A stretch of 64,000 nt of DNA from an uncultured Methanosarcinaceae archaeon (GTDB lineage Archaea; Halobacteriota; Methanosarcinia; Methanosarcinales; Methanosarcinaceae): assembly GCA_963733675.1 (NCBI GenBank), contig CAVTET010000004.1, forward strand, positions 32,001-96,000. The letters run 5' to 3'. The stretch's first letter is position 1; each line of letters opens with the position of its first letter. This document shows positions 11,780 to 55,735 of this stretch, piece after piece. The notes under the pieces were generated by a model. That model was not told the DNA's origin. It made no database searches and saw nothing but the letters and a program-made list of their open reading frames with translations. The position numbers and the translations under genes were made by a program.

Positions 11780-11801
11780 ATGGTAATAGGATTTACAATG
11801 A
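11780..11801 (+). pseudogene. detached 5' end (MVIGFTM) of the Lrp/AsnC gene
   Basis: ATG GTA ATA GGA TTT ACA ATG joins in frame to ORF 23726-23938 across the shared ACAATGATAAAT. Confidence 0.8.
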
Positions 11802-11930
11802 TAAATATGTATATGGAGTCTGGTAGGTTACGCCAGCTGAATTAGCAGCAAGAGTATACGTCAATCCAAGCGATACACTATCACCGATTTTCTGTTGAAT
11901 TTCAGGAGTTAATTTAGTAGGTCTTGCCAT
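11793..11930 (-). pseudogene. truncated HTH protein, terminase-small-subunit-like N-terminus (45 aa)
   Basis: MARPTKLTPEIQQKIGDSVSLGLTYTLAANSAGVTYQT...; GGTG RBS; reading frame runs into attL and stops. Confidence 0.55.
11795..11816. repeat. attL (ACAATGATAAAT direct repeat plus element arm TAAATATGTATATGG)
   Basis: 12-bp exact repeat of 23723-23734; arm is an inverted repeat of 23709-23723. Confidence 0.8.
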
Positions 11931-12623
11931 TGATAACACCGTTTTTTACTATTTAAAATAAATATCAATTAATGTTGTATTTATATTTTCTTAGTTCCCT
12001 TTGACACAACGACGGGGTTTATGTGCATAAAATCAAAAATGAGCTATTCTAGAGCGTTTAGACCAAATTAAATGCCCACAATTTTGTTGACAGACGACGG
12101 TGGGTGACCACGAGATATATTTCATATACGTTTTATTACTCTTAAAGTATAGAACTTATGTTATACTTATTCGTATTTGGTCTTTAGATAGGAAATGCAC
12201 TTTTAGATATAGTTGGGTTAAAAAATAAAGCGTAGACTTTATGGGAGAACTGATTTGGGCTGAGTTTTGGATATATAGTTTAGCGACCGTGGTGCATATA
12301 ACAGAGATACTATAGTATAATCTTGATCCTGACAGAGCCCCTGAAAGGATTACGACTGTTTCAGTGTACTGTTTAGCTTTGGCAGTTTGTTCGGTTGCGG
12401 TGGTTTTTGTGATCTATGTTTATCTGGAATTAATTAAAAAATAGTAAATAGCGAATTTATTTGATATTTATTTGATGATTTTCGCTAATTTAAGGAATTT
12501 TATTTGAATTATTTGATTCATTTCAGTAGTTTTTGTCACTTTTATTTAATAATTGAATTGATCTTAGGATTTATTCGTCAATTTATGACTAACATCGGAG
12601 ACGTCAAAAACGTTTATATTCCG

Positions 12624-13400
12624 TTATAACTCAGCCTTCCACTCATTAGCCTGGAATTGCTTCATCATATTCGCATTCTCATCTGGCTTTACAGTACGGT
12701 AAAGATGATGGTCAGATGGAATCACTTCAACCATAATATCGATCATTTCTTGTGGATCGTTCTGATGAGAAAAAATATCTTTGAAGTAAGGGAATTTTAT
12801 TAAATTTTTATCAGGATCGTACCACTGAGATACACTTTCTGCTCCAGTATCATTAAAACCAGTTAGGAATGCGCCTGGATTAATAGTCGCGACTTTCACA
12901 CCATAGGGCTCTAGCTCTTCTTTCATTGCCCAAGCAATGGCTTCGATAGCATGCTTAGTAGCGCAATAAGTTCCTACAAACGGTACCTTAAAAATTCCAG
13001 CCACCGATGAAATCCAAATAACCTTACCATCGCCTTGTTTTATCATTTTACGCGCAAAGCCCTGCGACAGCTCTAGATGACTGAAAACATTTGTCTCAAA
13101 GGATTCACGTACCCTTTCCAGAGGTATATCGACCATTGCACCACTTTCCATAATTCCGGCATTATTAACTAGAATATCAATGTCATAGGTCAGCGCACGC
13201 TGCTGATCGATATAATCTCGAATATCGAGCTTAACTACTTCAAGTTCGATAGCTTGTTCTTTGGCTTCACATCTTAAATCCCAGACCTGGGACCAGATTT
13301 GTGCAGCAGCAATAACTTTATGACCTGCCTTTGCCAAACCAAATGCTATCCCTTTACCAAAACCATGTCCAGCACCAGTAATAAGAATTGTCTTGCTCAT
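12624..13400 (-). CDS. short-chain dehydrogenase/reductase
   Basis: TGAGHGFG, NNAG and YCATK motifs. Confidence 0.92.
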   Translation of the reverse strand: MSKTILITGAGHGFGKGIAFGLAKAGHKVIAAAQIWSQVWDLRCEAKEQAIELEVVKLDIRDYIDQQRALTYDIDILVNNAGIMESGAMVDIPLERVRESFETNVFSHLELSQGFARKMIKQGDGKVIWISSVAGIFKVPFVGTYCATKHAIEAIAWAMKEELEPYGVKVATINPGAFLTGFNDTGAESVSQWYDPDKNLIKFPYFKDIFSHQNDPQEMIDIMVEVIPSDHHLYRTVKPDENANMMKQFQANEWKAEL

Positions 13401-13508
13401 AATTTCGTCCTTCTTTCTAATTCATTAAATTCATTCCTCCCCCTTTTAGTCTCACAATCTGTCTCGTAGGAGATAGCCTGTGTGTTCACATTCGATCCTA
13501 TTTCAATT

Positions 13509-15863
13509 TCACTGCCGGACCATGGCAATACGCATCTCAGCTTCCTTATCTTCTATCAGTTGGCCGCTTACATCCACAGTCACGCTACGGATCTTGCCTG
13601 TGAACTCAAAGGGAGGACGGTAGTCTGGTGTGACTGGTGATCTATGAGCTGACCCACAGGTTACTCCACCAGTTAGTCCTAATGCAAACGGAGTAGTCAC
13701 AGGTACATCAACTTGACCGACTAACTTTCCATCTATAAATAGCTTAGCAATTCCAGGTGAACCCTTACCATTAGCAAAATCTGGCTTACCTGTTACCTCG
13801 AACTCAAACCCGAGTTGATGTCTCCCTTCAGGAACATTCTCATTGGACTCTACATGATAGAAAGCCCTAGATACGTAGTTGTATACCCAGTGAAGCTTTC
13901 CGTATTTGACATAGAATGAATATCCGCCATCGATACCACCATGAGAGAGTAATATCCCTTCAGCTCCTCCTGCAGGGATCTCAACATCGGCTAAAATACT
14001 ATGCGAGCGGTTGAGAACGTTGACTGCTACAGTTGCGGGGATCTCCTGAGTTCCGGGATAATAGGTGTAGTGCGTTCGATTAATTGTAATACTTGGCCGT
14101 TCATCAGTAATACGCAAAACTCCGCGACCATCAATAGGTAGCACATTATATTTTCCGGCTTCTGCATACCATGTGGAGATCATCTCAATTAATTTCGATC
14201 GATTCTCAGCAGCCACGTTAAAATTCTCTGCCCAATCCTTCTCAATATGATAAAGCTCCCAGCCTTTTGCGTCTAGCTCAGTTAATGTATCTGCAGAAAT
14301 AGGTTCGCCGAATGGTTTTCCTGCTTCAGTGAAAGAAAGGCCAGGCCATGGACATACGGCACGCCAGCCATCATGATACAGTGAGCGGTGTCCCATCATC
14401 TCGAAGTACTGTGTATGGTGCTTGGTTGGCGCATTGACATCGGCAAATGTATGTGCAAAACTTACCCCTTCGATAGGTGATTGACTTACACCTTTGATAA
14501 TAGTAGGAGGTTCAATTCCCAGGCATTCCAGAACTGTAGGTACCATATCAATAGCGTGAGCATACTGAGTGCGAATCTCTCCTTTAGCCTCAATTCCTCT
14601 GGGCCAGTGGACTATAAATGGATCACTTATACCTCCGCGATAAGTCTCTCTTTTCCAACGGCGGAAGGGTGTATTTCCAGCAAATGTCCAGCCCCAGGCA
14701 TAATGGTTGTAAGTCTCTGGACTCCCTAGTTTATCTAGAGCTGCGAGATTCTCCTCGAGAGATTCGAGCACATTATTGAAAAATCTGGATTCGTTAATTG
14801 ATCCCGTGGGACCACCTTCAGCACTTGCTCCGTTATCGGAAATTACCATGATCAACGTGTTCTCAAACTCGCCAATATCTTTCAGTAATTGCAACAGCCG
14901 ACCAATATGGTAATCGGTGTGTTCTAAGAACCCTGCAAAGACCTCCATCATACGGGCATAGAGTTCCTTTTCTTCAGGTGAGCATTTGTCCCAGGTCTTG
15001 ACATCCGGATCATGCCGAGATAGCTCTGTTTCTTTTGGAACTATACTAAGTTCCTTCTGCCGAGATAATGTAATCTCCCGGTAAAAATCCCAGCCGTCAT
15101 CGAATTTGCCTTTGTATTTGTCTGCCCATTCCTTCGGAACATGGTGAGGAGCATGCATGGCTCCTGGACAGAAGTACATGAAAAAGGGCTTGCTAGGTGC
15201 GACTTGTTTGGAGTCAGCAATGAACTGGATTGCCCTGTTCACTATATCCTCATTTAATGTGTAACCCTCTTCTGGAGTTTTGGGAGGGTCTATGGAATGA
15301 TTATCATATATAAGCTCAGGATAATACTGGTTTGTCTCACCTCCTAAGAAACCGTAGAAACGCTCGAAACCCCGTCCCAAAGGCCATCTGTCATAAGCCC
15401 CCGCTGCCGATATCTGTTCTGCAGGGGTCAGATGCCATTTACCGATAGCATAGGTGCTGTAACCATGTTGCAGAAGCATCTCTGACAAAAAGCCATTCTC
15501 AAAAGGTATATAACCATTATAGCCTGGATAACCAGTCGAGCCTTCGGTGATGCAGGCCATGTTGTTAGAATGATGGTTTCTGCCGGTAAGCATGCACGAG
15601 CGGCTAGGTGAGCATAGTGCAGTAGTATGCATATTGGAATAGGCAAGCCCCCCAACAGCTAAACTATCAAGGTTGGGTGTATGGATAGGGCTACCATAGC
15701 ATCCAAGTTGTCCAAATCCTGTGTCGTCCAGGATGATGAACAGTACGTTAGGAGCGCCCTCTTTAGAGCGCAGTGGTTCTGGCCAAGCTGGCTCTGACTG
15801 ATCTTCTGTGCGGGCGATTACACCTGGAAAAGTAGTTCCTGGTTTGTATTCTTTCATTGACAC
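13509..15863 (-). CDS. arylsulfatase (Cys-type, CxPxR)
   Basis: LDDTG, LCSPSRSCMLTGR, GKWHL and SDNG motifs; probable GTG start at 15863 after GGAGG. Confidence 0.92.
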   Translation of the reverse strand: MSMKEYKPGTTFPGVIARTEDQSEPAWPEPLRSKEGAPNVLFIILDDTGFGQLGCYGSPIHTPNLDSLAVGGLAYSNMHTTALCSPSRSCMLTGRNHHSNNMACITEGSTGYPGYNGYIPFENGFLSEMLLQHGYSTYAIGKWHLTPAEQISAAGAYDRWPLGRGFERFYGFLGGETNQYYPELIYDNHSIDPPKTPEEGYTLNEDIVNRAIQFIADSKQVAPSKPFFMYFCPGAMHAPHHVPKEWADKYKGKFDDGWDFYREITLSRQKELSIVPKETELSRHDPDVKTWDKCSPEEKELYARMMEVFAGFLEHTDYHIGRLLQLLKDIGEFENTLIMVISDNGASAEGGPTGSINESRFFNNVLESLEENLAALDKLGSPETYNHYAWGWTFAGNTPFRRWKRETYRGGISDPFIVHWPRGIEAKGEIRTQYAHAIDMVPTVLECLGIEPPTIIKGVSQSPIEGVSFAHTFADVNAPTKHHTQYFEMMGHRSLYHDGWRAVCPWPGLSFTEAGKPFGEPISADTLTELDAKGWELYHIEKDWAENFNVAAENRSKLIEMISTWYAEAGKYNVLPIDGRGVLRITDERPSITINRTHYTYYPGTQEIPATVAVNVLNRSHSILADVEIPAGGAEGILLSHGGIDGGYSFYVKYGKLHWVYNYVSRAFYHVESNENVPEGRHQLGFEFEVTGKPDFANGKGSPGIAKLFIDGKLVGQVDVPVTTPFALGLTGGVTCGSAHRSPVTPDYRPPFEFTGKIRSVTVDVSGQLIEDKEAEMRIAMVRQ

Positions 15864-16176
15864 ATCTTTTCCTCCAATCGCTAATTGACATTTTGTAAAG
15901 CTCTGAAAGAGAAGGCTAAATAGGGGAAAAAACTTTATTATTTTGACCACTTTTTGTTAGAATTCGTAATTTGGCATGTCCACGAGTTTTTGAAAATTAT
16001 AACCATAAGGCTCGTCCTACATTTCTCTAAAAATGGGAAAAGCACTTGTTTTTCATATTTTATCAATGACTCAAGGATATGACTCACAATTTCTTGCCTG
16101 AAGATCAATTATTAAAAAAATAAAGTGGTTTCCAGAGAGTTTATTCCCTGGTAAAAATCTGCTTTCCCGACTGACT

Positions 16177-16665
16177 TTATTCTTCGGCAAAAGTTGCACG
16201 CAGTTGGCTTTCTTCTTCCTTTGACAGGTTGGTAGCAATTATTTCAAACTTGGACTTTTTCATAACTTCTACTACTCTATCCTCAACAGCATCGCTAGTC
16301 ATCAGGAAGAGAGCTGAAGTGCCTTCAGTCACTTTGTTGCGAACAGACTTTATGAAATCTTCATTAATACCCACGTGGGTCATGGAACCGGCAAATGCGC
16401 CTATTGCTGCACCAGCAACCAGGCCAACCAAAGGAATGAAGAAGAGGATACCAAATAGTAGACCCCAAAAAGCGCCGCTCAGTGCACCTTCACCGGTCAA
16501 ATTAGTCAAGTGCTTTGTTTTTGGTTTAGTTTTTCCTTCAGGCCAAGTGACTATAGCCGCATCATGTAGTTTTATCATTTGTTGCTTACTTAAGTCCTCA
16601 ATCACTTCAAGTTCATTTTCTGCACCATCAGCAGTGTCAAACTTCAAAACTGTTAAAGTTGCCAT
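16177..16665 (-). CDS. DUF1269-family membrane protein
   Basis: MATLTVLKF...GALSGAFWGLLFGILFFIP...GTSALFL pattern. Confidence 0.85.
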   Translation of the reverse strand: MATLTVLKFDTADGAENELEVIEDLSKQQMIKLHDAAIVTWPEGKTKPKTKHLTNLTGEGALSGAFWGLLFGILFFIPLVGLVAGAAIGAFAGSMTHVGINEDFIKSVRNKVTEGTSALFLMTSDAVEDRVVEVMKKSKFEIIATNLSKEEESQLRATFAEE

Positions 16666-17133
16666 TACTCAATCTCCTTTCATGCGTTCATATTTATTTC
16701 GCAGTTTTTTGGGTAGCATGCCGATCAAAGCTACACGTCTTTTTGTAATCTTCAACCTGAGAACTGCTACGATTTAGAAGAGCCGAAACAAGTCGTTTTA
16801 TCAGCTGGTAATCTAAAAATTGACCATGCGCTAGGTTGTTATCGGCAGCGTTGCAATCCATTGGTTAGGTGATCCATTAATAAGTATTATGCTTTTTTCC
16901 AATTTAAGGTCCATTCTCTCGCTCAAAATTTTCCCATATAACCGCAACTCTAGGACTTTTACCAGTCCACGGGTTTCTAATACATTCTTTTTTCGCGAGT
17001 CAAATTTTAAATGAATTTATGGGACACGTTGTTGTTTTTCATAATATCGGTTTATAACGATGTAGCTTTATCTGATACGACATATTATCTAAAATGAGAT
17101 ATATATTTGCATTAATTTTATTATCTGAAATCA

Positions 17134-17487
17134 TTATTTGGTTATTAAGGCGTGTGTTTTTAAAGTGGGGTACTCTTCATAACAATTGTCACATAAAACA
17201 GTTACAGTAGGGCTTTTACCCCGTTGTCTTACAGTTTTTATCATCCCACATTTTTCTAACTCATCCAATGCTTTCGGAAAAGCCCAACCTGGGATAGGTA
17301 GAAATAAGTTTATGCCCTTTAGGGTGACTACTAAGTCTTTAGATTTCTTAACTCCTTTTAAATGCCAAATATACATAGCCATCCTGTATGTATGCCCCAC
17401 CGAATTGGAAGGTAACTTTATAATCCATTCTGAAGGCATTTGCGATATGAAAGAGCCTTTTATTTTATCTTTAGAATTCACTAGCAT
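17134..17487 (-). CDS. small winged-helix protein, candidate origin-binding/Rep protein
   Basis: C-terminal KALDELEKCGMIKTVRQRGKSPTVTV wHTH-like signature; adjacent to repeat array and polA. Confidence 0.7.
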   Translation of the reverse strand: MLVNSKDKIKGSFISQMPSEWIIKLPSNSVGHTYRMAMYIWHLKGVKKSKDLVVTLKGINLFLPIPGWAFPKALDELEKCGMIKTVRQRGKSPTVTVLCDNCYEEYPTLKTHALITK

Positions 17488-17499
17488 ACTTTACCCCAG

Positions 17500-17725
17500 T
17501 TAATATTATCATTAAATATTAAGAAGAAATAAAGAAGATATATTAAAGAAATATAAGTAGTAAAACAGATATCATGAGACGTTAGAATTTAGCTGCACAG
17601 CTAATTAATTTTAGCTGCAGAGCGAAATATATTTTGCTGGGCAGCTAATTAATATTACTCCACAGTTAAATTGGAATTTGGCTCTACAGCTAAATAGAAA
17701 AGTTTGTCCAGAGGCTTTGAGCCTC
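17500..17725. repeat. candidate replication origin: AT-rich tract, five palindromic boxes (consensus TTAGCTGCACAGCTAA) and hairpin
   Basis: Boxes at 17589, 17611, 17633, 17654 and 17678 (spacing 22, 22, 21, 24); AT-rich 17500-17570; GAGGCT-TTG-AGCCTC hairpin at 17711-17725. Confidence 0.7.
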
Positions 17726-17739
17726 ATTTATGGTGGGTT

Positions 17740-19509
17740 TTACTCTTGTTTTACTTCTGTGAGGATTCGCATAATAAGCTCCCAAGTTTCGGCACCTTTC
17801 TCATCTATATACCTGTCAGGATAGCGGACAATATCGACATCTGTTTTCAATCTGTTACCTGCACCCAAAACGATCTCGGATGCATCACACACCAACTTTC
17901 TCGCTATCTCTATCTCTTTGTCTACCGCCTTTTCGTCGCACTCAATCGTCAACGCATCGTGAACTGGAGCAACAATTTTAATTTTATTTTTTGAGAGAAG
18001 GATGCATGCCACTCTAAGAATTTCAGCTCCAGTAGCTTGGATTGGGAAATTTTGAACGGTCAACATTTCCTTATTACTGGAGCCTGAAACAATCATTTTC
18101 CATTTGTAGCAGGTTTCGATCCTTTTCATTAAACAGGCTTGAGTCCACGTCATATCTACCCAACGCCAATAATTTTTGAAGACTCTTTTGTGATGACTAA
18201 GCAGTTCTTTTGCATAAGGTGTAGGCTTATCAATTTTAAGACCAAGTGATTCTGCACCCAAGCCATACTGAACGCCTAGTACACAGGATTTAAAAAGCTG
18301 CCTCATACTACCATGCGTTTCTTTTGTAGCGTCTGCTGGAACTGCACCTGCCAGTTTTGCAAAAGCCAGATATGGATCCCTACTTCTATATGCCTCAATC
18401 ATATTGGGGTCATTAGAGAGAACTGCCGCAATAAAGAACTCTTGCTGCGCATAATCAATATATGCAAGCACTTTTTCTTCAGTAGGTTTTATTAAACTTC
18501 TCAGACTAGCAGGAAGTCCAAACATAAACCTAACTCTTAATTCTCCTCTATTCTTTTTTTCTTCGTCATCCTTAGGGGCATTTCTACCTGTCTTAGTCCA
18601 GAATGGGGAGATTAAGGTTCGACTCCTGCCATCTGAACCAGCCATAATAGACTTAAAGTTTAACCCACCGATAAGAGCTCTTAATTCCTTTAAAGGCCTG
18701 ATTTCGATATGGATTTCTGCCATTTCCTTAAAAGTTTCCGTGTCTATTTTTGGCAAATCCGTATAAGTTCTTGGCCACACCCAATTATGGACTTGAAGTA
18801 ATCTCACAAAATTATTTATCTTAAAACTTGTACCTTCATAAATTCCAAACTTGTCAATATTTTTGATTAACTTTAATTTTATTTTTTCCCAGTTTTCTTG
18901 TAACTTGTTAAGTAGATCGGTATCTATTGGTATACCATTATACTCAATTTCTGCCACATATTTCATATACTCCCCCCGATATAGAGAAGTTGGTATATCA
19001 AAATCAGGGACTTTAATCATTTGTTTGAATAACTCTGCTGTTTCAAGCACGTCAGATTCACAATAACGCATAATGTATTCTTGATCTTCTTCAGAGTCAG
19101 GACCGCCAGCTAAAATACGATCTCTTGCAGCGTCTTTCTCCACTTTGCTAATGGTCTCTATGCCAAAAGCTTCACACGCATCCAGTAGATTTGCGCCTCT
19201 TCGTTCATAAGAATGATTAGAAAAGCACCTGTACTCCACGAAAGTATCAATGATATTGGATGGTAAAGGCCAGTTTAAGATCAGGTGACGTCCCCACTCC
19301 GCTGAACTCATATGAGCAACAAATAAGTCATTCTCACCTATCTAGTAGGGTGGCTGTGGATTACTTTCTTCAAAAAGCCACATTTTTTTAGTTTCTCCAG
19401 AATTTATCTCATGGGAAGCAACACAAACAGGTATTGGATGTTCGCTCGGTTTCGCGATAAACTCAAAGTCTATCACGTAAATGTTATCAAAAAATTGTAG
19501 GGGGAGCAT
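17740..19509 (-). CDS. family A DNA polymerase (3'-5' exo + polymerase, 589 codons) with in-frame TAG at codon 56
   Basis: ExoI DFEF; motif A DYAQQE; motif B RQLFKSCVLGVQYG; motif C VHDAL. ATG 19509 is in frame with ORF 17740-19311 through a single TAG at 19342-19344. Confidence 0.88.
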
Positions 19510-20078
19510 TAAAGCTCGCCTCTGAGTCTCTTTAAAATAGGGTGGTTATAGTCATCTATAAACCGGTCCTTGAAAGCTATCTCGATAGCTTTGACTATGT
19601 TTTCCGGTTCGTCAGGCCATTCAGGTTCAGGAAGTTTACTTATCGCTAAGACGATATCGTAAGCTCCGATTGAGTAATTCCTTTGCAGCTTTACCCATTG
19701 AGTTTCCCCTGTGGTGTATGCGATCCGTCGGGTACGATTGAACTCATTGTCCTTACCTTCCGCGTCAGGTTGGGCTATTTCTGAGAGAAAAATTTCACCT
19801 GACCCGTAGGTAATTCCAACGTGAATTCTGACAAGCTTTAGCCTTTTTGTCTCCATCACCTTAGGATACAGATCTGGATTGAGGAGGTCTTTTCCTTCCC
19901 CTTCACTGTTGCCACCTAAATCCAAGAGAGAAGTGTCGAATTTCCATTCTGGCCCTGGCCTGATCCTGAAAAATTCCACACCAGTGTTGGGTTTTTTAAG
20001 AGGAATTGAAGTCACCACGCGCTTTATAAGGATGGGGGTAACTTCGGTAACTCGGAGAGCCTCAAAGTTAAAAGGCAT
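19509..20078 (-). CDS. polA-coupled hypothetical protein (possible ssDNA-binding or accessory factor)
   Basis: 189 aa; GGAGG RBS; stop overlaps polA start (TAATG); ends PILKRLRGEL. Confidence 0.8.
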   Translation of the reverse strand: MPFNFEALRVTEVTPILIKRVVTSIPLKKPNTGVEFFRIRPGPEWKFDTSLLDLGGNSEGEGKDLLNPDLYPKVMETKRLKLVRIHVGITYGSGEIFLSEIAQPDAEGKDNEFNRTRRIAYTTGETQWVKLQRNYSIGAYDIVLAISKLPEPEWPDEPENIVKAIEIAFKDRFIDDYNHPILKRLRGEL

Positions 20079-20227
20079 CTAAAAAACCTCCATACTTGAA
20101 GTAAAAGTTGCTAGACTATACATGCAACTGCTAGATGCAGAGCTAAAAAAGAAACTATATTTGATATGAAAACTCTATCATTCATAATGCATCACTCTTT
20201 GTTTATGGGTTGATCTGTTCTCGTGGG

Positions 20228-20569
20228 TCACTCGTGCGAAAGTAAGCATCTTTCAGTGGTGTTTTGCGAAATTTCCGACTGCTTGGCCGCTGTGGACATT
20301 CGCGAATCACTAACTGCAACGTTTTTAATTAAGATGGCTTGTACTTTATCATATACATATCCTGTTTTGAGTATCAAAGCAACCTCTACTCTCGTTTTAC
20401 TGTTTCCAGAGTTGCTTCTCCTCTTATCGATGGATGCTCTTATTGGCAGGAGACGTACCTTAGCCATTTTCTCGATTTTGATCATTGTTTTATGTACTTT
20501 GGAAAGATGCTGATCAAGTTTTACATCTATCGTTAAAGTTTTATTTTTATAATATCTATTATTCATCAT
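20228..20569 (-). CDS. hypothetical basic protein
   Basis: 113-aa ORF co-oriented with the element's operon. Confidence 0.45.
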   Translation of the reverse strand: MMNNRYYKNKTLTIDVKLDQHLSKVHKTMIKIEKMAKVRLLPIRASIDKRRSNSGNSKTRVEVALILKTGYVYDKVQAILIKNVAVSDSRMSTAAKQSEISQNTTERCLLSHE

Positions 20570-20638
20570 GATGCCCTCGATATTTTGATAGCCGGCAGTA
20601 TCTTGATCCGTATGCCGGTTACAATTCTAAGTATATTT

Positions 20639-20881
20639 TCATTTTTCAATTTTACTGTTGTTGTTTTTATCTCTGGATTTACTGATTTCATCCAAAGCAT
20701 AGGCAAAGCTGTCATAAAAGCACCCTGCTTGCAACTTATGGAAGATACAAAAAAAATCAGTATTCAGAGCCAAGTTAAGTTCGATCAAATACCTTAGCTG
20801 GGATAGCTTCTTCTTATCAGGAGTAACTTTCCATTGGATTTGTGGAAGTTTGATACTTCCTACAATCTTGTTTTTAAGCAT
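20639..20881 (-). CDS. hypothetical protein
   Basis: 80-aa ORF with GGAG RBS. Confidence 0.45.
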   Translation of the reverse strand: MLKNKIVGSIKLPQIQWKVTPDKKKLSQLRYLIELNLALNTDFFCIFHKLQAGCFYDSFAYALDEISKSRDKNNNSKIEK

Positions 20882-20947
20882 TAATCTCCACTCCTGCTGT
20901 TTTTAATATATCCTTCGCAATAACCCTATTTAACGGATTATCACTTT

Positions 20948-21253
20948 TCAACATGAGCAATAAAACTTCGTTATTTTGCTCACTAACAAGTCTTGCCCAT
21001 TCCGAAAACGAAAAAAATTATCTTTTCTGGTTATAGAGTTCATTACATTCACCTTCTTCCAGATGGTTGTGTTAATCTCGGTTCTGCGGGCCCGGTAAGA
21101 TTCTACAGGAACTGGGGTTATGATAATTCTTTGTTCATTGTCCATTTCGATCTTTACGTTTTCAGGATTCTCTGACCTGATCCACTGTATCGGCAGACTA
21201 ATTAAAAAGCTGCCTCCTTGTCTAAATATTGATCTTTTACCGATATTGAGCAT
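20948..21253 (-). CDS. AbrB/MazE-type DNA-binding protein
   Basis: RSIFRQGGSFLISLPIQWIR...VKIEMD..IIITP swapped-hairpin pattern; GAGGT RBS. Confidence 0.7.
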   Translation of the reverse strand: MLNIGKRSIFRQGGSFLISLPIQWIRSENPENVKIEMDNEQRIIITPVPVESYRARRTEINTTIWKKVNVMNSITRKDNFFRFRNGQDLLVSKITKFYCSC

Positions 21254-21424
21254 TTATGTTACCTCAATTTGACTTCGATATGACTAATGTTATAATTTTA
21301 TATATAGTTTTATATATTGATAAATAGATTTATTAGAACAACATATTGTGAGATAATAATATACATCCAACATGTTGGTAAAATATCACTATTATTTAAT
21401 AGAAGTTACAATTTGTCTTATAAC

Positions 21425-22228
21425 ATGGAAGAAAAACCTATCAAGAAAACAATAAAAGACAAAATTTTAGAAAGCTTAGTATATTATCCGAAAACAAACA
21501 CTCAACTGTTGCAAGAGCTGGGTTATAGTAATAAACAACATGGTAACATTTCTAAACAATTAAATCAGCTAAAAACAGATGGGTTTATTGTTGATGGAAA
21601 AGAAAAATCTCCAAATATAGATGACTATGCTACATCATGGTCAATAGTTCCAACTCTAGAAAATTTTAGGTATATAGGAAAAGATCCAAATTTAGTACCA
21701 GTGTTGCAAAAAAAAGATGTTGTTCTCGAAATTATTGCGGAGAACATGCGTGTTTCAATTATTCAAGATGTTATTCTGGATATAGACGCTACTAGTTCTC
21801 TTATAAGTAAGAAAATAATTAGAGGAGATCAGGAAGAATTATATTCACTTCTTGAAAAGCCTAAAAGAAAATTTAAGGAAATGTTAAAATTATCTCCTGT
21901 ATTCTTCAAATTTCATCTACTTCATGAAGATTACAACACGGACTCATGGAGTGATTTTGAAAGGGATATTGAAGAATTAGGACATATAGCTAAATTTCAA
22001 CTTATCCCTCCTCGTAATATAGTACGGTATTATCTATTTCTGAATTCATATGATTTTAAATTTTGTGTTGGTATAGATATGTTATATGGAAAATTAAGTG
22101 ATGAGGCAAAGAACTACTGGATTGAAATAAAAAATTATTTGAAAGAAGAAGAAATAAATATTAAGCCCATCACAGAAGCCGTCAGAAAAGCCATCACAAA
22201 ACAAGAATATAATTCTGCATTGAAATAA
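21425..22228 (+). CDS. wHTH-domain protein, putative element regulator
   Basis: KILESL...TQLLQELGY..QHGNISKQLNQLKTDGFI wHTH pattern; probable start MEEKP. Confidence 0.7.
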   Translation: MEEKPIKKTIKDKILESLVYYPKTNTQLLQELGYSNKQHGNISKQLNQLKTDGFIVDGKEKSPNIDDYATSWSIVPTLENFRYIGKDPNLVPVLQKKDVVLEIIAENMRVSIIQDVILDIDATSSLISKKIIRGDQEELYSLLEKPKRKFKEMLKLSPVFFKFHLLHEDYNTDSWSDFERDIEELGHIAKFQLIPPRNIVRYYLFLNSYDFKFCVGIDMLYGKLSDEAKNYWIEIKNYLKEEEINIKPITEAVRKAITKQEYNSALK

Positions 22229-22337
22229 ATTTTCTCTAAAGATCTTTTACCTAAATTTCTAAAAATATTAAAAGAATTTGTATTACAATATTATTGTCTA
22301 ATTGAGGAATTGGTTTCGTTTTAGACAACCATTAAAA

Positions 22338-23640
22338 TTACTTTTCATTTTTAAGCATGGCCTCCTTCAATTTAGAAATTTCGTCAAGCTCCCTTTTTAA
22401 TTCGTTCTTCATTTCCCATATTTTTTCAAGGTCTGCATATTGCATATAGTCAGCTTTGATAGATTCGGTGGCCTTCATTTTTTCTATCTCTGCCTTGAGT
22501 TCCTGCAGCTCCGATCTTTCCACAACATGCCTGGCTGTTTCAGCTTGTAAAATCTGATTTTCCTGTTTGATCCGCAGGTACTCAGGACTTTCTGAGATAT
22601 CCATCTCTTTTTGAATTGTAAGATAAGGCATATATTTTCCAATATCTTTGCTAAAGAGTTTTGATCAGATCGAAAATAAGCGGCTTTAGTTCTATCAATT
22701 TTATGTCCCATTGTAAACTCAACAAAGAAAGAGTCACAACCAACATTTAACAGAGCAGAGTCATAGTATTTCCTTATATTGTGACTTCGCATGATATTCC
22801 ATTTCCCTTTAGGTGTTGATTTACTGGCTTTCTCATTAAGCATTCTGTATATCTTGAGGAACGAATTCCTTTCAAGCTTCCTTAGAGACTCATCTTTTTT
22901 ATCAAGCCATTCAGCAGGTATTTTTCGACCAATGAAAAGGTAATCGTTGTCAGAGTAAACATGTTGCTTCTGTAATTGTTTTTGTTTCCTTATATCGGTT
23001 GAGTCAGATTTCCTATTTCTAAAATCTAAATAATCAATTACTGCTTGACTAGTTTCTGGCGTCAGAAATGTGATAAAATCTACCTTAGTTTTACCTCTAC
23101 GTAGTTTTAAAGTTGTTATTCCAGTTGTGGAATCATATCTATCCTTGAAGTTTCCAACTTTTAAATTTATGATCTCATTTGAACCTAATCCACTGCTTAA
23201 ACCTACTAAAACTACAGCTATTTCTAGCGGATCAGCCACTTTTAATATTATTTTAATATCATTTTTTGAAGTATCTCAATGTTACTTTCTAATACTGTGG
23301 ACTCAAGATTCCTTTGTTTAGGAAATTGAATATTATAATATGTATAAAATGACTGAATAGCCATTATATAACCTCGAATAGTGTTTGGAGCAAGATTCTT
23401 GTTTTTTAAATGCTGTTTAAATCTAGGAATATCAACGAAGATCGATCTTTCATCCATTAGCATTCCTGCTTTAATCTCAGCTTTAGCTTCAGTTATAAGT
23501 TGATCTGGGATTTTGGACAGAAACTCACAGTAAGCATTTATAGAATGCGTATAATTTCTTCTGGTATTAGATGAAGCTTCAATAGCTAACATCCAATTGT
23601 CTACCTTGGTAGACAATACAAAGTTAATATCAACAGTCAT
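22338..23640 (-). pseudogene. tyrosine recombinase/integrase, split by two frameshifts
   Basis: SAM-like N-terminus (23248-23640), catalytic core SSGL..EI, HNIRKY, MGH, AYF (22484-23239) and coiled-coil tail (22338-22631); single-base shifts near 23270 and 22640. Confidence 0.85.
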
Positions 23641-23708
23641 AAGTAATTACCTCTATCATTTCATCCATTTTAAAATATTCGTTTTCCAAAAAATTTAGGG
23701 TTGTGTTA

Positions 23709-23734
23709 CCATATACGGTATAACAATGATAAAT
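23709..23734. repeat. attR (arm CCATATACGGTATAA plus CAATGATAAAT)
   Basis: Direct repeat with 11795-11806; ~70 bp from integrase start. Confidence 0.8.
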
Positions 23735-23938
23735 GTGCTGCCAAGCTATGAAAAGGCAGCATATAGGGAATTTAGGACTATAGAAGGAATTAAAGACGTT
23801 TACCATGTCTTTGGAGAATATGATTTTGTAGTAATTATTAATGTCAAAGACCTTAGCACACTTAATTCAGTAGTGGACAGGATAAGGGAAAGCGAAACAG
23901 TAACCGCTACCCAGACAATTGTTGGGGCAGATCTTTAA
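23726..23938 (+). CDS. Lrp/AsnC ligand-binding (RAM)-domain protein, missing first 6 codons
   Basis: IEGIKDVYHVFGEYDFVV..V..L..VVDRIR....T.T pattern. Confidence 0.85.
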   Translation: MINVLPSYEKAAYREFRTIEGIKDVYHVFGEYDFVVIINVKDLSTLNSVVDRIRESETVTATQTIVGADL

Positions 23939-54920: not shown

Positions 54921-54994
54921 TTAAATCCTATCGAATAATTATTTTGTAAGGGTTGAATATTCTTTGCTTAGCTCATTTATGTGAATAAAATTAA

Positions 54995-55735
54995 GTATTA
55001 TTTTAGGGCAACTGAGACTTTTAGATATTCTAATTGGATATGACGGACTGAATAGATTTTTACTATCACTTTTTGGGACAAAAACTGGACGAAACGCTCC
55101 AAGCACTTCTAAGTTTATGTTTAGGCCTGCAATATGGCTTAGAAACCTTATCAAACCTGAAAAACGAAAAGTTCTGGCTTCATTGATTATTATCGATAAG
55201 AATTTATGATAGAGCTGCTTTTTCAAATGATCCAGAAATGAAAGCCGCATATTTCACAGGTGATCCTTATCTAGCGTTTGCAAAACAGGCGGGAGCAGGG
55301 CCACTGAATGCGACAAAATCAATTCATTAAGCTGCAAGAGAGCTTTTTAAAACGTTTGTATTGGGCGTTCGATATGGTATGCTGTCAGATAATTTGGCTT
55401 TGCGTATAGGCAAATCTACTCCATACGCGAAAGAACTACTAAGGTACCATAAACGGATTTATAAAACATATTGGAACTGATGCGAGCACGTATTAGACAC
55501 AACCCTGTTGTTTAAACGCATCACGACCTGTTTTCGTTGGCAAATGCATATTTTTGGCGGGGAAAAGAAAGAAGACAGAACTATCACAAATCTCCCTTGT
55601 CAAGCAACAGGTGCAGAAATTCTCAGAGTTGCCTGTATCCTCTTGTAGAGAATAATATCAAAATCATTGCTCCTATACGTGACACAATTCTTATCGAATG
55701 CGACGAAGAAGAGGCAGATGAGATTAAAGAGGTTT
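54995..55735 (+). pseudogene. second family A DNA polymerase remnant, homologous to 17740-19509
   Basis: GTKTGRNAPS..FMF..LRNLIKP..KVLA; SNDPEMKAAYFTGDPYLAFAKQAGA; RELFKTFVLGVRYG; TPYAKELL; QATGAEILRVACILL; IIAPIRDTILIECDE. Confidence 0.85.

What the first reader, a model, noticed from the sequence alone, without database searches (positions are those of the whole stretch)
17134..20078. Candidate undescribed system: PolA-based replication module in an archaeal integrative element
Seen: a co-oriented cassette of a 189-aa unknown protein, overlapping (TAATG) a Klenow-like family A polymerase with ExoI and motifs A, B and C, then an iteron-like array and a 117-aa wHTH gene, inside att sites with a tyrosine integrase. 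Known: archaea replicate with PolB/PolD; PolA is mainly bacterial, phage or organellar; pipolins pair a primer-independent PolB with tyrosine recombinases. Inference: a self-synthesizing, pipolin-like element built on PolA. No primase, helicase or terminal protein is recognisable, so priming may be unusual (the polymerase itself, the 189-aa partner, a hairpin, or host primase). I cannot confirm novelty without a search.
Basis: partly seen in the sequence, partly recalled or inferred. Interest (0 to 1): 0.92.

Follow-up and report, generated by a model that had tools for sequence, protein, structure and literature searches.

The report
Archaeal mobile element with own PolA
A small DNA element inserted in a methanogen's chromosome carries a bacterial-type DNA polymerase flanked by two conserved partner genes, a three-gene copying module also found in bacterial viruses, though this copy is already broken.

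Summary
Window 17134-20078 (minus strand) encodes a 189-aa protein (p189), a family A polymerase with exonuclease and polymerase motifs, a repeat array, and a winged-helix gene. They form the core of an 11.9-kb element (about 11807-23734). It is bounded by a 12-bp direct repeat, and a same-genus genome shows the empty site.

This copy is defective. polA has an in-frame TAG at codon 56, where six sister copies have Ser (TCA). The integrase is in three frame-shifted pieces. No pyrrolysine machinery was found in the genome.

The trio is a conserved module:
- A PolA gene follows the p189 homologue in 68 of 68 loci with room.
- The winged-helix gene follows polA in 29 of 39 loci.
- The pair also occurs in tailed-phage contigs.

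p189 belongs to a large family (1992 clusters) with no Pfam, NCBIfam, PHROG or PDB match. The winged-helix protein resembles phage DnaD/O-type initiators. Its 22-bp repeats change sequence with it between clades.

The polymerase fits the published CHEAP subfamily ("no known partners"). The nearest worked-out analogue is CcPol-MP-Cch2 of SCCmec.

Verdict: an element replication module, and a new variant of a known kind. The priming mechanism is untested. Earlier notes of this scan describe the same module in bacteria.

The parts
11795..11806 (.). attL core, ACAATGATAAAT. This is the left end of the 11.9-kb element, inside the 5' end of a small RAM/AsnC-type gene.
   Evidence: The exact 12-bp repeat recurs at 23723-23734. 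The empty site in G156 (L032) joins both flanks across one copy of the core.
11805..11930 (-). A 42-codon fragment of the 'F3' family gene. In relatives F3 is the last gene of the element, downstream of the winged-helix gene.
   Evidence: tblastn with F3 of L010 gives 71% identity over residues 1-42. F3 follows the winged-helix gene in 11 loci.
12624..13400 (-). Cargo: short-chain dehydrogenase.
   Evidence: PF00106 at E 3.7e-41. An 89%-identical copy sits in the same position in L011.
13509..15950 (-). Cargo: sulfatase, 813 aa.
   Evidence: PF00884 at E 5.6e-68. A sulfatase-like gene follows the winged-helix gene in L011, and a 93%-identical fragment follows it in copy D.
16177..16665 (-). 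Cargo: DUF1269 protein.
   Evidence: PF06897 at E 7e-37. Two copies at 80-83% identity follow the winged-helix gene in L011.
17134..17487 (-). Winged-helix protein of 117 aa ('F1' family). It is the likely origin-binding initiator.
   Evidence: AF2 model: pLDDT 79.4, H-b-H-H-b-b. Foldseek best hit is the CodY winged-helix domain, E 2.8e-3, TM 0.51-0.62. PHROG hits: DnaD-like helicase loader in 13 of 26 family members, best E 9.4e-5, plus replication-initiation families. The gene follows polA in 29 of 39 loci.
17488..17587 (-). AT-rich spacer upstream of the winged-helix gene. It is a possible promoter and unwinding region.
   Evidence: Read from the sequence. The stretch is conserved in 8 of 8 aligned copies. 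The function is inferred.
17588..17695 (.). Array of five related boxes (TTAGCTGnnnAGC-type) spaced 21-24 bp apart. These are candidate iterons or operators.
   Evidence: Other clades carry different 22-23-bp tandem repeats at the same place.
17711..17725 (.). Short hairpin (6-bp stem) just after the polA stop codon.
   Evidence: Read from the sequence. It was not tested further.
17740..19509 (-). Family A DNA polymerase with 3'-5' exonuclease and polymerase domains. The frame has 589 codons and is interrupted by TAG at 19342-19344.
   Evidence: Sister copies have Ser (TCA) at the TAG position.
19509..20078 (-). p189, the obligate upstream partner of the polymerase. It belongs to a large family that has no name.
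   Evidence: 1992 clusters at E<=1e-3. No Pfam, NCBIfam, PHROG or PDB-sequence hit. AF2 model pLDDT 92.6. PolA lies directly downstream in 68 of 68 loci.
20228..21253 (-). Three small ORFs of 113, 80 and 101 aa upstream of p189. The 101-aa one has a weak AbrB/MazE-like hit.
   Evidence: PF04014 at E 0.0036, below the cut-off. Homologues of the 113-aa and 101-aa ORFs occur in L009 and in copies B and C.
21317..22228 (+). Divergently transcribed 'F2' protein. It has an N-terminal winged-helix domain and an unknown C-terminal domain, and is a likely regulator.
   Evidence: The family occurs in 19 of 53 loci. The profile hits PDB 2d1h, a transcriptional regulator, at E 7.6e-4. No Pfam family was found.
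22338..23640 (-). Tyrosine integrase pseudogene in three frame-shifted pieces: 23248-23640, 22484-23239 and 22338-22631.
   Evidence: PF02899/PF13495 and PF00589. All three pieces align in order to the single 443-aa ORF of L009.
23723..23734 (.). attR core, ACAATGATAAAT. This is the right end of the element.

Best explanation
The region is the replication core of an 11.9-kb integrative element in a Methanosarcina-genus archaeon.

Shown:
- The element is inserted by site-specific recombination at a 12-bp core in the 5' end of a small RAM-domain gene.
- It encodes a tyrosine integrase, small regulators, cargo genes and a three-gene module: p189, a proofreading family A polymerase, and a winged-helix protein.
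- The module is conserved as a unit from archaeal elements to bacterial prophage-like contigs.
- This copy has a nonsense codon in polA and frameshifts in the integrase.

Inferred:
- After excision, the winged-helix protein binds the 22-bp repeats between polA and its own gene. Its wHTH domain resembles those of phage DnaD/lambda-O initiators. Binding marks or opens the adjacent AT-rich DNA.
- p189 binds the polymerase. It acts as its accessory subunit on single-stranded template, as MP does for CcPol in SCCmec or gp2.5 does for the T7 polymerase.
- The polymerase then copies the circle.
- Helicase activity, and possibly priming, come from the host, unless p189 lets PolA start chains itself.
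For: 1. Mobile element.
- The 12-bp repeat and the empty site in G156 bound the insertion.
- G000 holds about ten polA loci or relics.
- p189 is patchy: 10 of 177 genomes of the family and 7 of 401 sampled genomes of the phylum.

2. Module conservation.
- I examined 83 loci (3 viral and 80 metagenomic). Of these, 68 had at least 300 bp after the p189 homologue. All 68 have a PolA homologue on the same strand, starting within 1500 bp and mostly within 0-27 bp.
- An F1 winged-helix ORF lies within 600 bp after polA in 29 of 39 loci with room. Two more overlap polA by more than 50 nt.
- Integrase families F4 or F5 occur in 19 of 53 loci.

3. Polymerase competence.
- Exo and pol motifs are invariant in a 55-sequence alignment.
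- Intact 589-590-aa genes exist in L009, L010 and L045.

4. Initiator and origin.
- The F1 model has the winged-helix fold.
- F1 members hit the PHROG families DnaD-like helicase loader (13 of 26) and replication initiation (6, 6 and 3 of 26).
- The five-box array is conserved in 8 of 8 copies.
- Diverged clades keep 22-23-bp tandem repeats at the same place, but with different sequence.

5. p189-PolA contact.
- The genes overlap as TAATG.
- Complex prediction gave weak support. The score was 0.43 (runs 0.43, 0.51, 0.40) and the best of 3 controls was 0.00.
- In the tool's calibration the mark was reached by 58 of 80 solved complexes and 2 of 110 mismatched pairs. At 0.60 or under it was reached by only 7 of those 80, and by both mismatches that passed.
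- The runs agree in at least 37% of contacts, and the partner's pLDDT is at least 78. I used my own alignments, so these counts hold only roughly.

6. Precedent.
- CcPol-MP-Cch2 of SCCmec is described as a replication module in which a small partner gives a PolA priming activity. I saw this in the abstract start of PMC7581432, sections 3 and 4 of PMC10061031 and section 26 of PMC10201439.
Against: - No biochemical or in vivo evidence exists for any step.
- The window's copy cannot work as it stands. It has a TAG at codon 56 and a broken integrase. Both are reproduced in short-read contigs that differ in no letter. No copy in G000 has all genes intact.
- p189 has no significant structural match. 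The best PDB hit has E 0.14. The best BFVD hits have E about 2e-3 and TM up to 0.48; most of the top ten are uncharacterised phage proteins. The 'ssDNA-binding accessory subunit' role is therefore a guess.
- p189 has no conserved acidic residues that would suggest catalysis.
- The complex score is only 'weak support'.
- The repeats lie directly upstream of the winged-helix gene. They could be plain autoregulatory operators.
- In the bacterial versions the winged-helix gene abuts polA with no intergenic array. The origin may therefore lie elsewhere.
- No helicase or primase is on the element, so autonomous replication is unproven.
Confidence: 0.6

Rival explanations
1. The module does not replicate the element vegetatively. 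It may make the second strand, or repair the element's DNA, after transfer or excision. Or it may serve in conflict with other elements, as a defence or counter-defence polymerase.
For: Rice (PMC10061031, section 4) lists these same alternatives for the PolA-SSB operons of Bacillota elements. The element has no helicase or primase. The polymerase is a proofreading, repair-like Klenow type.
Against: The winged-helix partner resembles replication initiators. It sits beside tandem repeats that vary with it between clades. That pattern is typical of an origin with its initiator. In phage contigs the trio sits where replication genes sit, before the terminase.
Confidence: 0.17
2. The element is the stump of a tailed provirus. 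The trio is a phage replication module left behind after the structural genes were lost.
For: Homologous p189-PolA pairs lie next to terminase, portal and capsid genes in 3 of 3 viral contigs. These contigs came from a viral collection, so that is partly expected.
Against: The window element is att-bounded at 11.9 kb and has no structural gene. I scanned only a few ORFs of the related archaeal loci L009-L012, L034-L036 and L045. Those showed the same compact order, integrase-F2-small ORFs-p189-PolA-F1-(cargo)-F3, and no terminase, portal or capsid family. Labelled archaeal PolAs (5 of 5) form a clade apart from the labelled bacterial (4) and phage-contig (3) rows. This comes from a quick, midpoint-rooted tree.
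Confidence: 0.1
3. The polymerase is a domesticated cellular auxiliary or repair enzyme of the host, as the name CHEAP (Cellular Highly Efficient Auxiliary Polymerases) implies. The element context is incidental.
For: Czernecki et al. describe the subfamily as cellular enzymes that do not replace Pol I (PMC10201439, section 26).
Against: The gene lies inside an insertion that is absent from a same-genus genome. It is multi-copy and mostly decayed in G000. p189 was found in only 10 of 177 family genomes. The module travels with integrases.
Confidence: 0.05
4. The in-frame TAG is read as pyrrolysine, so this copy makes a full-length polymerase.
For: The host genus is one in which PylS is common: 51 of 58 other genomes have it. 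TAG ends only 92 of 878 long open frames in G000.
Against: PylS, PylD, MtmB and a CUA-anticodon tRNA were not found in G000, which is 92% complete. Six sister copies have Ser (TCA) at this codon. The integrase of the same copy is also broken.
Confidence: 0.05

Closest known systems
CHEAP subfamily of family A DNA polymerases (cluster #15 of Czernecki et al., NAR 2023, PMC10201439; sections 11 and 26 and found passages read)
   Same: About 580-600 aa with a 3'-5' exonuclease and a polymerase domain, and no 5'-3' exonuclease. All catalytic motifs are kept. Leu stands at motif B position B3 (L411 here). The paper reports the subfamily in Proteobacteria and in archaeal Methanomicrobia. My relatives are named Methanosarcina, Methanosalsum, Methanoperedens, Deltaproteobacteria and Nitrospinae.
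   Different: The paper calls them cellular and lists 'no known partners'. Here the gene is element-borne and always preceded by p189 (68 of 68). I could not compare directly with the paper's reference enzyme from I. dechloratans, so membership rests on shared features.
CcPol-MP-Cch2 operon of SCCmec and the 'PolA-SSB primases' of Bacillota mobile elements (PMC7581432, listing and abstract start only; PMC10061031, sections 3 and 4 read)
   Same: A family A polymerase is carried by an integrative element and paired with a small partner protein encoded next to it. The operon was proposed as the element's replication module. [quoted passage not shown]
   Different: There the order is Pol, small OB-fold SSB, helicase, then large serine recombinases, and all examples are in Bacillota. 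Here the partner lies upstream. It is 189 aa and has no detected OB-fold or MP similarity. No helicase is present. The third gene is a winged-helix protein, and the recombinase is a tyrosine integrase. Priming activity has not been tested for this module.
Pipolins and casposons (self-synthesizing elements; recalled, plus the mention of piPolB in PMC10061031)
   Same: A small integrative element carries its own DNA polymerase together with a recombinase.
   Different: Those elements use family B polymerases (primer-independent PolB or PolB) and, in casposons, Cas1. This polymerase is family A and has two obligate partner genes.
Phage lambda O / DnaD-type initiators with iteron origins (PHROG families 186, 8102, 270, 428, 678)
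   Same: A small winged-helix protein is encoded beside tandem repeats about two helical turns apart, with an AT-rich stretch next to them.
   Different: The matches are weak (best E 9.4e-5) and cover only the winged-helix domain. The 117-aa protein has no C-terminal helicase-recruiting domain.

Membership tests
Family A DNA polymerase (PF00476) | Pfam match above the gathering score, and motifs A, B and C with the catalytic Asp residues | tested here: met
   90.9 bits against a cut-off of 34.3. D352, R403/K407/Y415 and H517-D518 are invariant in 55 sequences. Their positions in the window are given.
Family A DNA polymerase (PF00476) | Uninterrupted reading frame in this copy | tested here: not met
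   TAG at codon 56. It is reproduced in contigs X1 record 4 and X2 record 10, which differ in no letter.
CHEAP subfamily (cluster #15, PMC10201439) | Leu at motif B position B3 with intact exonuclease and polymerase motifs | tested here: met
   K407+4 is L411. The ExoI D14/E16 and ExoIII Y149/D153 residues are conserved.
CHEAP subfamily (cluster #15, PMC10201439) | Clusters by sequence with the reference enzyme (I. dechloratans) | not tested
   The reference sequence was not at hand in any tool. The best PDB match is only 8jrb_A at E 1.9e-16.
CHEAP subfamily (cluster #15, PMC10201439) | Found in Proteobacteria and Methanomicrobia | tested here: met
   Named hits are Methanosarcina mazei and M. 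barkeri, Methanosalsum, Methanoperedens, Deltaproteobacteria and Nitrospinae.
PolA-SSB primase operons (CcPol-MP-Cch2 type) | Small OB-fold SSB encoded between the polymerase and a helicase | tested here: not met
   The partner lies upstream of polA. No helicase was recognised on the element. p189 has no PDB fold or sequence match.
PolA-SSB primase operons (CcPol-MP-Cch2 type) | The partner binds the polymerase | tested here: inconclusive
   Complex prediction gave weak support: score 0.43, best control 0.00.
PolA-SSB primase operons (CcPol-MP-Cch2 type) | De novo primer synthesis by the complex | not testable with these tools
   This needs biochemistry.
Pipolins | Primer-independent family B polymerase | tested here: not met
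   The polymerase is family A.
Tyrosine-recombinase integrative element | Integrase with the PF00589 catalytic domain, flanking direct repeats, and an empty site in a relative | tested here: met
   The integrase of this copy is frame-shifted.
Iteron-type replication origin | Tandem repeats of about 20 bp next to an AT-rich stretch and the initiator gene | tested here: met
   Five boxes lie at 17588-17695, conserved in 8 of 8 copies. Repeats specific to each clade lie at the same place.
Iteron-type replication origin | Initiator binding and origin firing | not testable with these tools
   This needs binding and replication assays.

The most novel reading that the evidence does not exclude
p189 converts a proofreading family A polymerase into a replicase that starts DNA chains by itself at an origin marked by the winged-helix protein. 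This would be a second PolA-based primase-polymerase, evolved independently of CcPol-MP. The three-gene module would be the minimal replicon of a very large, undescribed family of small integrative elements and temperate phages spanning Bacteria and Archaea. It would also be the first PolA-driven replicon known for archaeal mobile elements.
Probability: 0.25. Interest if true: 0.85.

Novelty: new variant of a known kind. Interest (0 to 1): 0.62.

Why it matters
By my recollection, known archaeal mobile elements replicate with family B polymerases, primase-polymerases, MCM helicases or rolling-circle Rep proteins. A family A polymerase replicon in Methanosarcina elements would add a new type. 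It would also show direct sharing of a replication module between bacterial phages and archaeal elements.

The work re-reads a published polymerase subfamily ("cellular", "no known partners") as element-borne. It has an obligate partner from a large unnamed family whose predicted fold matches nothing solved.

This gives a concrete, cheap experiment: do PolA plus p189 prime, or gain processivity? It may also yield a small replicon for methanogen genetics.

Tried and rejected
I studied neighbourhoods with the search for related loci and the genome search instead, as the closing message advised.
- p189 gave nothing in Pfam, NCBIfam, PHROGs or PDB sequences.
- tblastn found no p189 homologue in PLSDB plasmids or INPHARED phages. 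A bacterial-type homologue (L037) also found nothing in phages.
- PolA against phages gave only distant hits at 24-27% identity, plus one 45% fragment at the end of CP017838.1.
- The protein atlas gave no usable hit for p189. For the 303-aa F2 protein it gave only scores under 0.9.
- Foldseek of p189 against PDB found nothing (best E 0.14). An earlier scan note calls the partner 'truncated beta-clamp-like'. No clamp appeared among my top 50 PDB matches, so I do not adopt that.
- Hot Spring 1/apicoplast-type PolA was rejected. Prex polymerases match worse (E about 6e-6) than Taq, and that cluster keeps Phe at B3 whereas this family has Leu.
- Pyrrolysine reading of the TAG was rejected as unlikely.
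- F2 as a hidden primase or helicase: no Pfam family, and only a winged-helix match in PDB.
- Sequencing runs: no RNA holder was listed, so nothing can be said about expression. I laid only 17134-23740, so the element ends and any circle junction were not examined.
- The careful tree search did not finish. Only the quick tree was used.
- Literature searches found no paper that describes p189, the trio, or PolA-bearing elements of Methanosarcinales. The supplements of PMC10201439 and PMC12926913 (cluster member lists, neighbourhoods) might bear on this.
Full report
**What is in the window.** On the minus strand, three genes lie in a row.
- A 189-aa ORF (p189) occupies 19509-20078.
- Its TAA overlaps an ATG as TAATG. 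That ATG opens a 589-codon frame, 17740-19509.
- The frame is a family A DNA polymerase: PF00476 at 90.9 bits, E 1e-25, and phrog_17 at E 9.6e-51.
- All the expected motifs are present: ExoI DFEF 14-17, ExoIII YCESD 149-153, TGR 306-310, motif A DYAQQE 352-357, motif B 403-416 and motif C VHDA 516-519.
- The frame is interrupted once, by TAG at codon 56 (19342-19344). ATG-to-stop ORFs are therefore 55 aa and 523 aa.
- Downstream come a short hairpin and five related boxes at 17588-17695, spaced 21-24 bp apart.
- An AT-rich stretch and a 117-aa gene (17134-17487) follow.

**The element.**
- Upstream of p189 lie three small ORFs and a divergent 303-aa gene (F2).
- Next is a tyrosine integrase (PF00589, PF02899/PF13495), split into three pieces in different frames. 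All three pieces align in order to a single 443-aa ORF in relative L009.
- An exact 12-bp repeat, ACAATGATAAAT, stands at 11795-11806 and 23723-23734.
- In same-genus genome G156 the two flanks are joined across one copy of this core, inside the 5' end of a small RAM-domain gene next to topoisomerase VI.
- The insertion is therefore 11.9 kb.
- Between the winged-helix gene and attL it carries a DUF1269 gene, a sulfatase and a short-chain dehydrogenase.
- The same cargo follows the winged-helix gene in L011, which is from another genome. A sulfatase fragment follows it in copy D.

**This copy is decaying.**
- Six sister copies (B and C of G000, and L009, L010, L012, L044) have Ser (TCA) where the window has TAG.
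- Contigs of soil-metagenome runs cover the TAG with no differing letter: X1 record 4 and X2 record 10.
- Other contigs cover the first integrase frameshift site without gaps: X4 record 32, and X2 record 16 with one other letter.
- These runs may include the sample the genome was assembled from. They rule out a consensus error but are not independent.
- PylS, PylD, MtmB and a CUA tRNA were not found in the 92%-complete genome. PylS is present in 51 of 58 other genomes of the genus.
- I read the TAG as a nonsense mutation.
- G000 has about ten polA loci or relics. None has all genes intact. Intact sets exist in other genomes, for example L009.

**The trio is a conserved module.**
- p189 has 1992 relatives at E<=1e-3 among 1.84 billion cluster representatives.
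- It has no Pfam, NCBIfam, PHROG or PDB-sequence match, either for itself or for 35 family members.
- I fetched 3 viral and 80 metagenomic loci with p189-family patterns.
- Of these 83 loci, 68 have at least 300 bp after the p189 homologue. All 68 have a PolA homologue next on the same strand.
- I clustered the ORFs of the 53 loci of at least 4 kb.
- The winged-helix (F1) family appears in 34 of these loci. It lies within 600 bp after polA in 29 of 39 loci with room, and two more overlap polA.
- Tyrosine-integrase families F4 or F5 appear in 19 of the 53 loci.
- In the three viral contigs the pair lies before terminase, portal and capsid genes. The module is therefore shared with tailed phages.
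- p189 occurs in 10 of 177 genomes of the host family and in 7 of 401 sampled genomes of the phylum.

**What the parts look like.**
- The p189 model is confident (pLDDT 92.6), but it matches nothing solved. The best PDB hit has E 0.14.
- It matches predicted phage proteins only weakly: E about 2e-3 and TM up to 0.48. Two of these are named DNA- or ssDNA-binding.
- Its invariant residues are aromatic or structural: W128, Y140, P152, P155 and G187. It ends in a conserved DHPVLxRLRGE tail.
- A complex prediction of an intact PolA with p189 gave weak support. The score was 0.43 against 0.00 for the best of three controls.
- The calibration counts are quoted in the For line. Scores at this level are more often wrong than right unless the pairing was already likely.
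- The 117-aa protein folds as a winged helix (pLDDT 79.4). The best PDB matches are CodY and ArsR winged-helix domains, ORC/Cdc6 winged helices and a plasmid RepA N-domain.
- Its family hits PHROGs named DnaD-like helicase loader (13 of 26 members, best E 9.4e-5), replication initiation protein and O-like.
- The box array is conserved in 8 of 8 aligned copies.
- Diverged clades (L051, L055, copy D) have different 22-23-bp tandem repeats at the same place. That is what cognate binding sites would do.
- F2 has an N-terminal winged helix only.
- No primase, helicase or terminal protein was recognised.

**Comparison with what is known.**
- The polymerase has Leu at motif B position B3 and intact exonuclease motifs.
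- This fits cluster #15 (CHEAPs) of Czernecki et al. 2023, which the paper reports from Proteobacteria and Methanomicrobia. The paper calls these enzymes cellular, with 'no known partners', and names CcPol of SCCmec as their closest kin (PMC10201439).
- It does not fit the Hot Spring clusters.
- CcPol-MP-Cch2 and the PolA-SSB operons of Bacillota elements are the nearest worked-out analogue (PMC7581432 abstract start; PMC10061031 sections 3 and 4).
- They differ in gene order, partner fold, presence of a helicase, recombinase type and host range.
- A quick, midpoint-rooted tree puts 5 of 5 labelled archaeal PolAs in one clade of 41 rows. The 4 labelled bacterial and 3 phage-contig rows fall in the other clade of 14. 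Both clades have SH-aLRT 100.
- Six literature searches found no description of p189, of the trio, or of PolA-bearing Methanosarcinales elements. Supplements could not be read.
- Earlier notes of this scan (e1-4701739, e1-4129997) describe the same kind of module in bacteria and reach the same comparison. They are unverified AI notes. I reached CHEAP and CcPol from the papers before reading them.

**Verdict.**
- The best reading is a replication module of an integrative element: an initiator with iterons, plus PolA with an accessory subunit.
- It is a new variant of a known kind.
- How synthesis is primed is open. The boldest reading not excluded is that p189 makes PolA self-priming.

Noticed in passing
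whole genome G000; genus-level search: PylS, PylD, MtmB and a tRNA with a CUA anticodon were not found in G000, which is 92% complete. PylS is present in 51 of 58 other genomes of the genus. It is missing from G128, G129, G134, G152, G155, G157 and G159, and four of these also carry p189/PolA elements. This may be a pyrrolysine-less soil or peat lineage of the genus.
   Followed up: partly
window 11805-11930 (-); about 50 places in G000: The 'F3' family (138-165 aa, N-terminus MPRPSKLT..., no Pfam hit) has about 50 tblastn matches across G000. It follows the winged-helix gene in 11 loci. In the window only its first 42 codons remain, right at attL. It may be a separate multi-copy element or the terminal gene of these elements.
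   Followed up: partly
G000:C4:160000-179000 (L034); L045; L012: In copy B and two related loci the element is followed by nifH, two P-II genes, nitrogenase D, an AnfG/VnfG delta subunit and K. This is an alternative-nitrogenase operon. Whether it is host flank or cargo was not settled.
   Followed up: no
window 54988-55722 (+): A second, older polA relic, about 50% identical and full of stops and frameshifts, lies 35 kb from the first.
   Followed up: partly
G000:C8:7486-8193: A distant PolA-like open frame, 24-28% identical to the window's, sits on a 9.8-kb contig.
   Followed up: no
p189 and F1 families (alignments A1, A5): The N-terminus of p189 and the N-terminus of the bacterial winged-helix proteins share a short [FL]DxxxLRL motif. 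It may be a common docking peptide.
   Followed up: no
window 20091-20463: Contigs in three soil-metagenome runs skip 371 bp here, the region of the 113-aa ORF. The polA/winged-helix part has 3-5 times the contig depth of the rest of the element. This is consistent with several related copies in these samples.
   Followed up: no
window 11783-11806 and 23726-23938: The insertion separates the first codons of a 75-aa RAM/AsnC-type ligand-binding gene from the rest. A possible in-frame ATG remains in the att core on the right side.
   Followed up: partly
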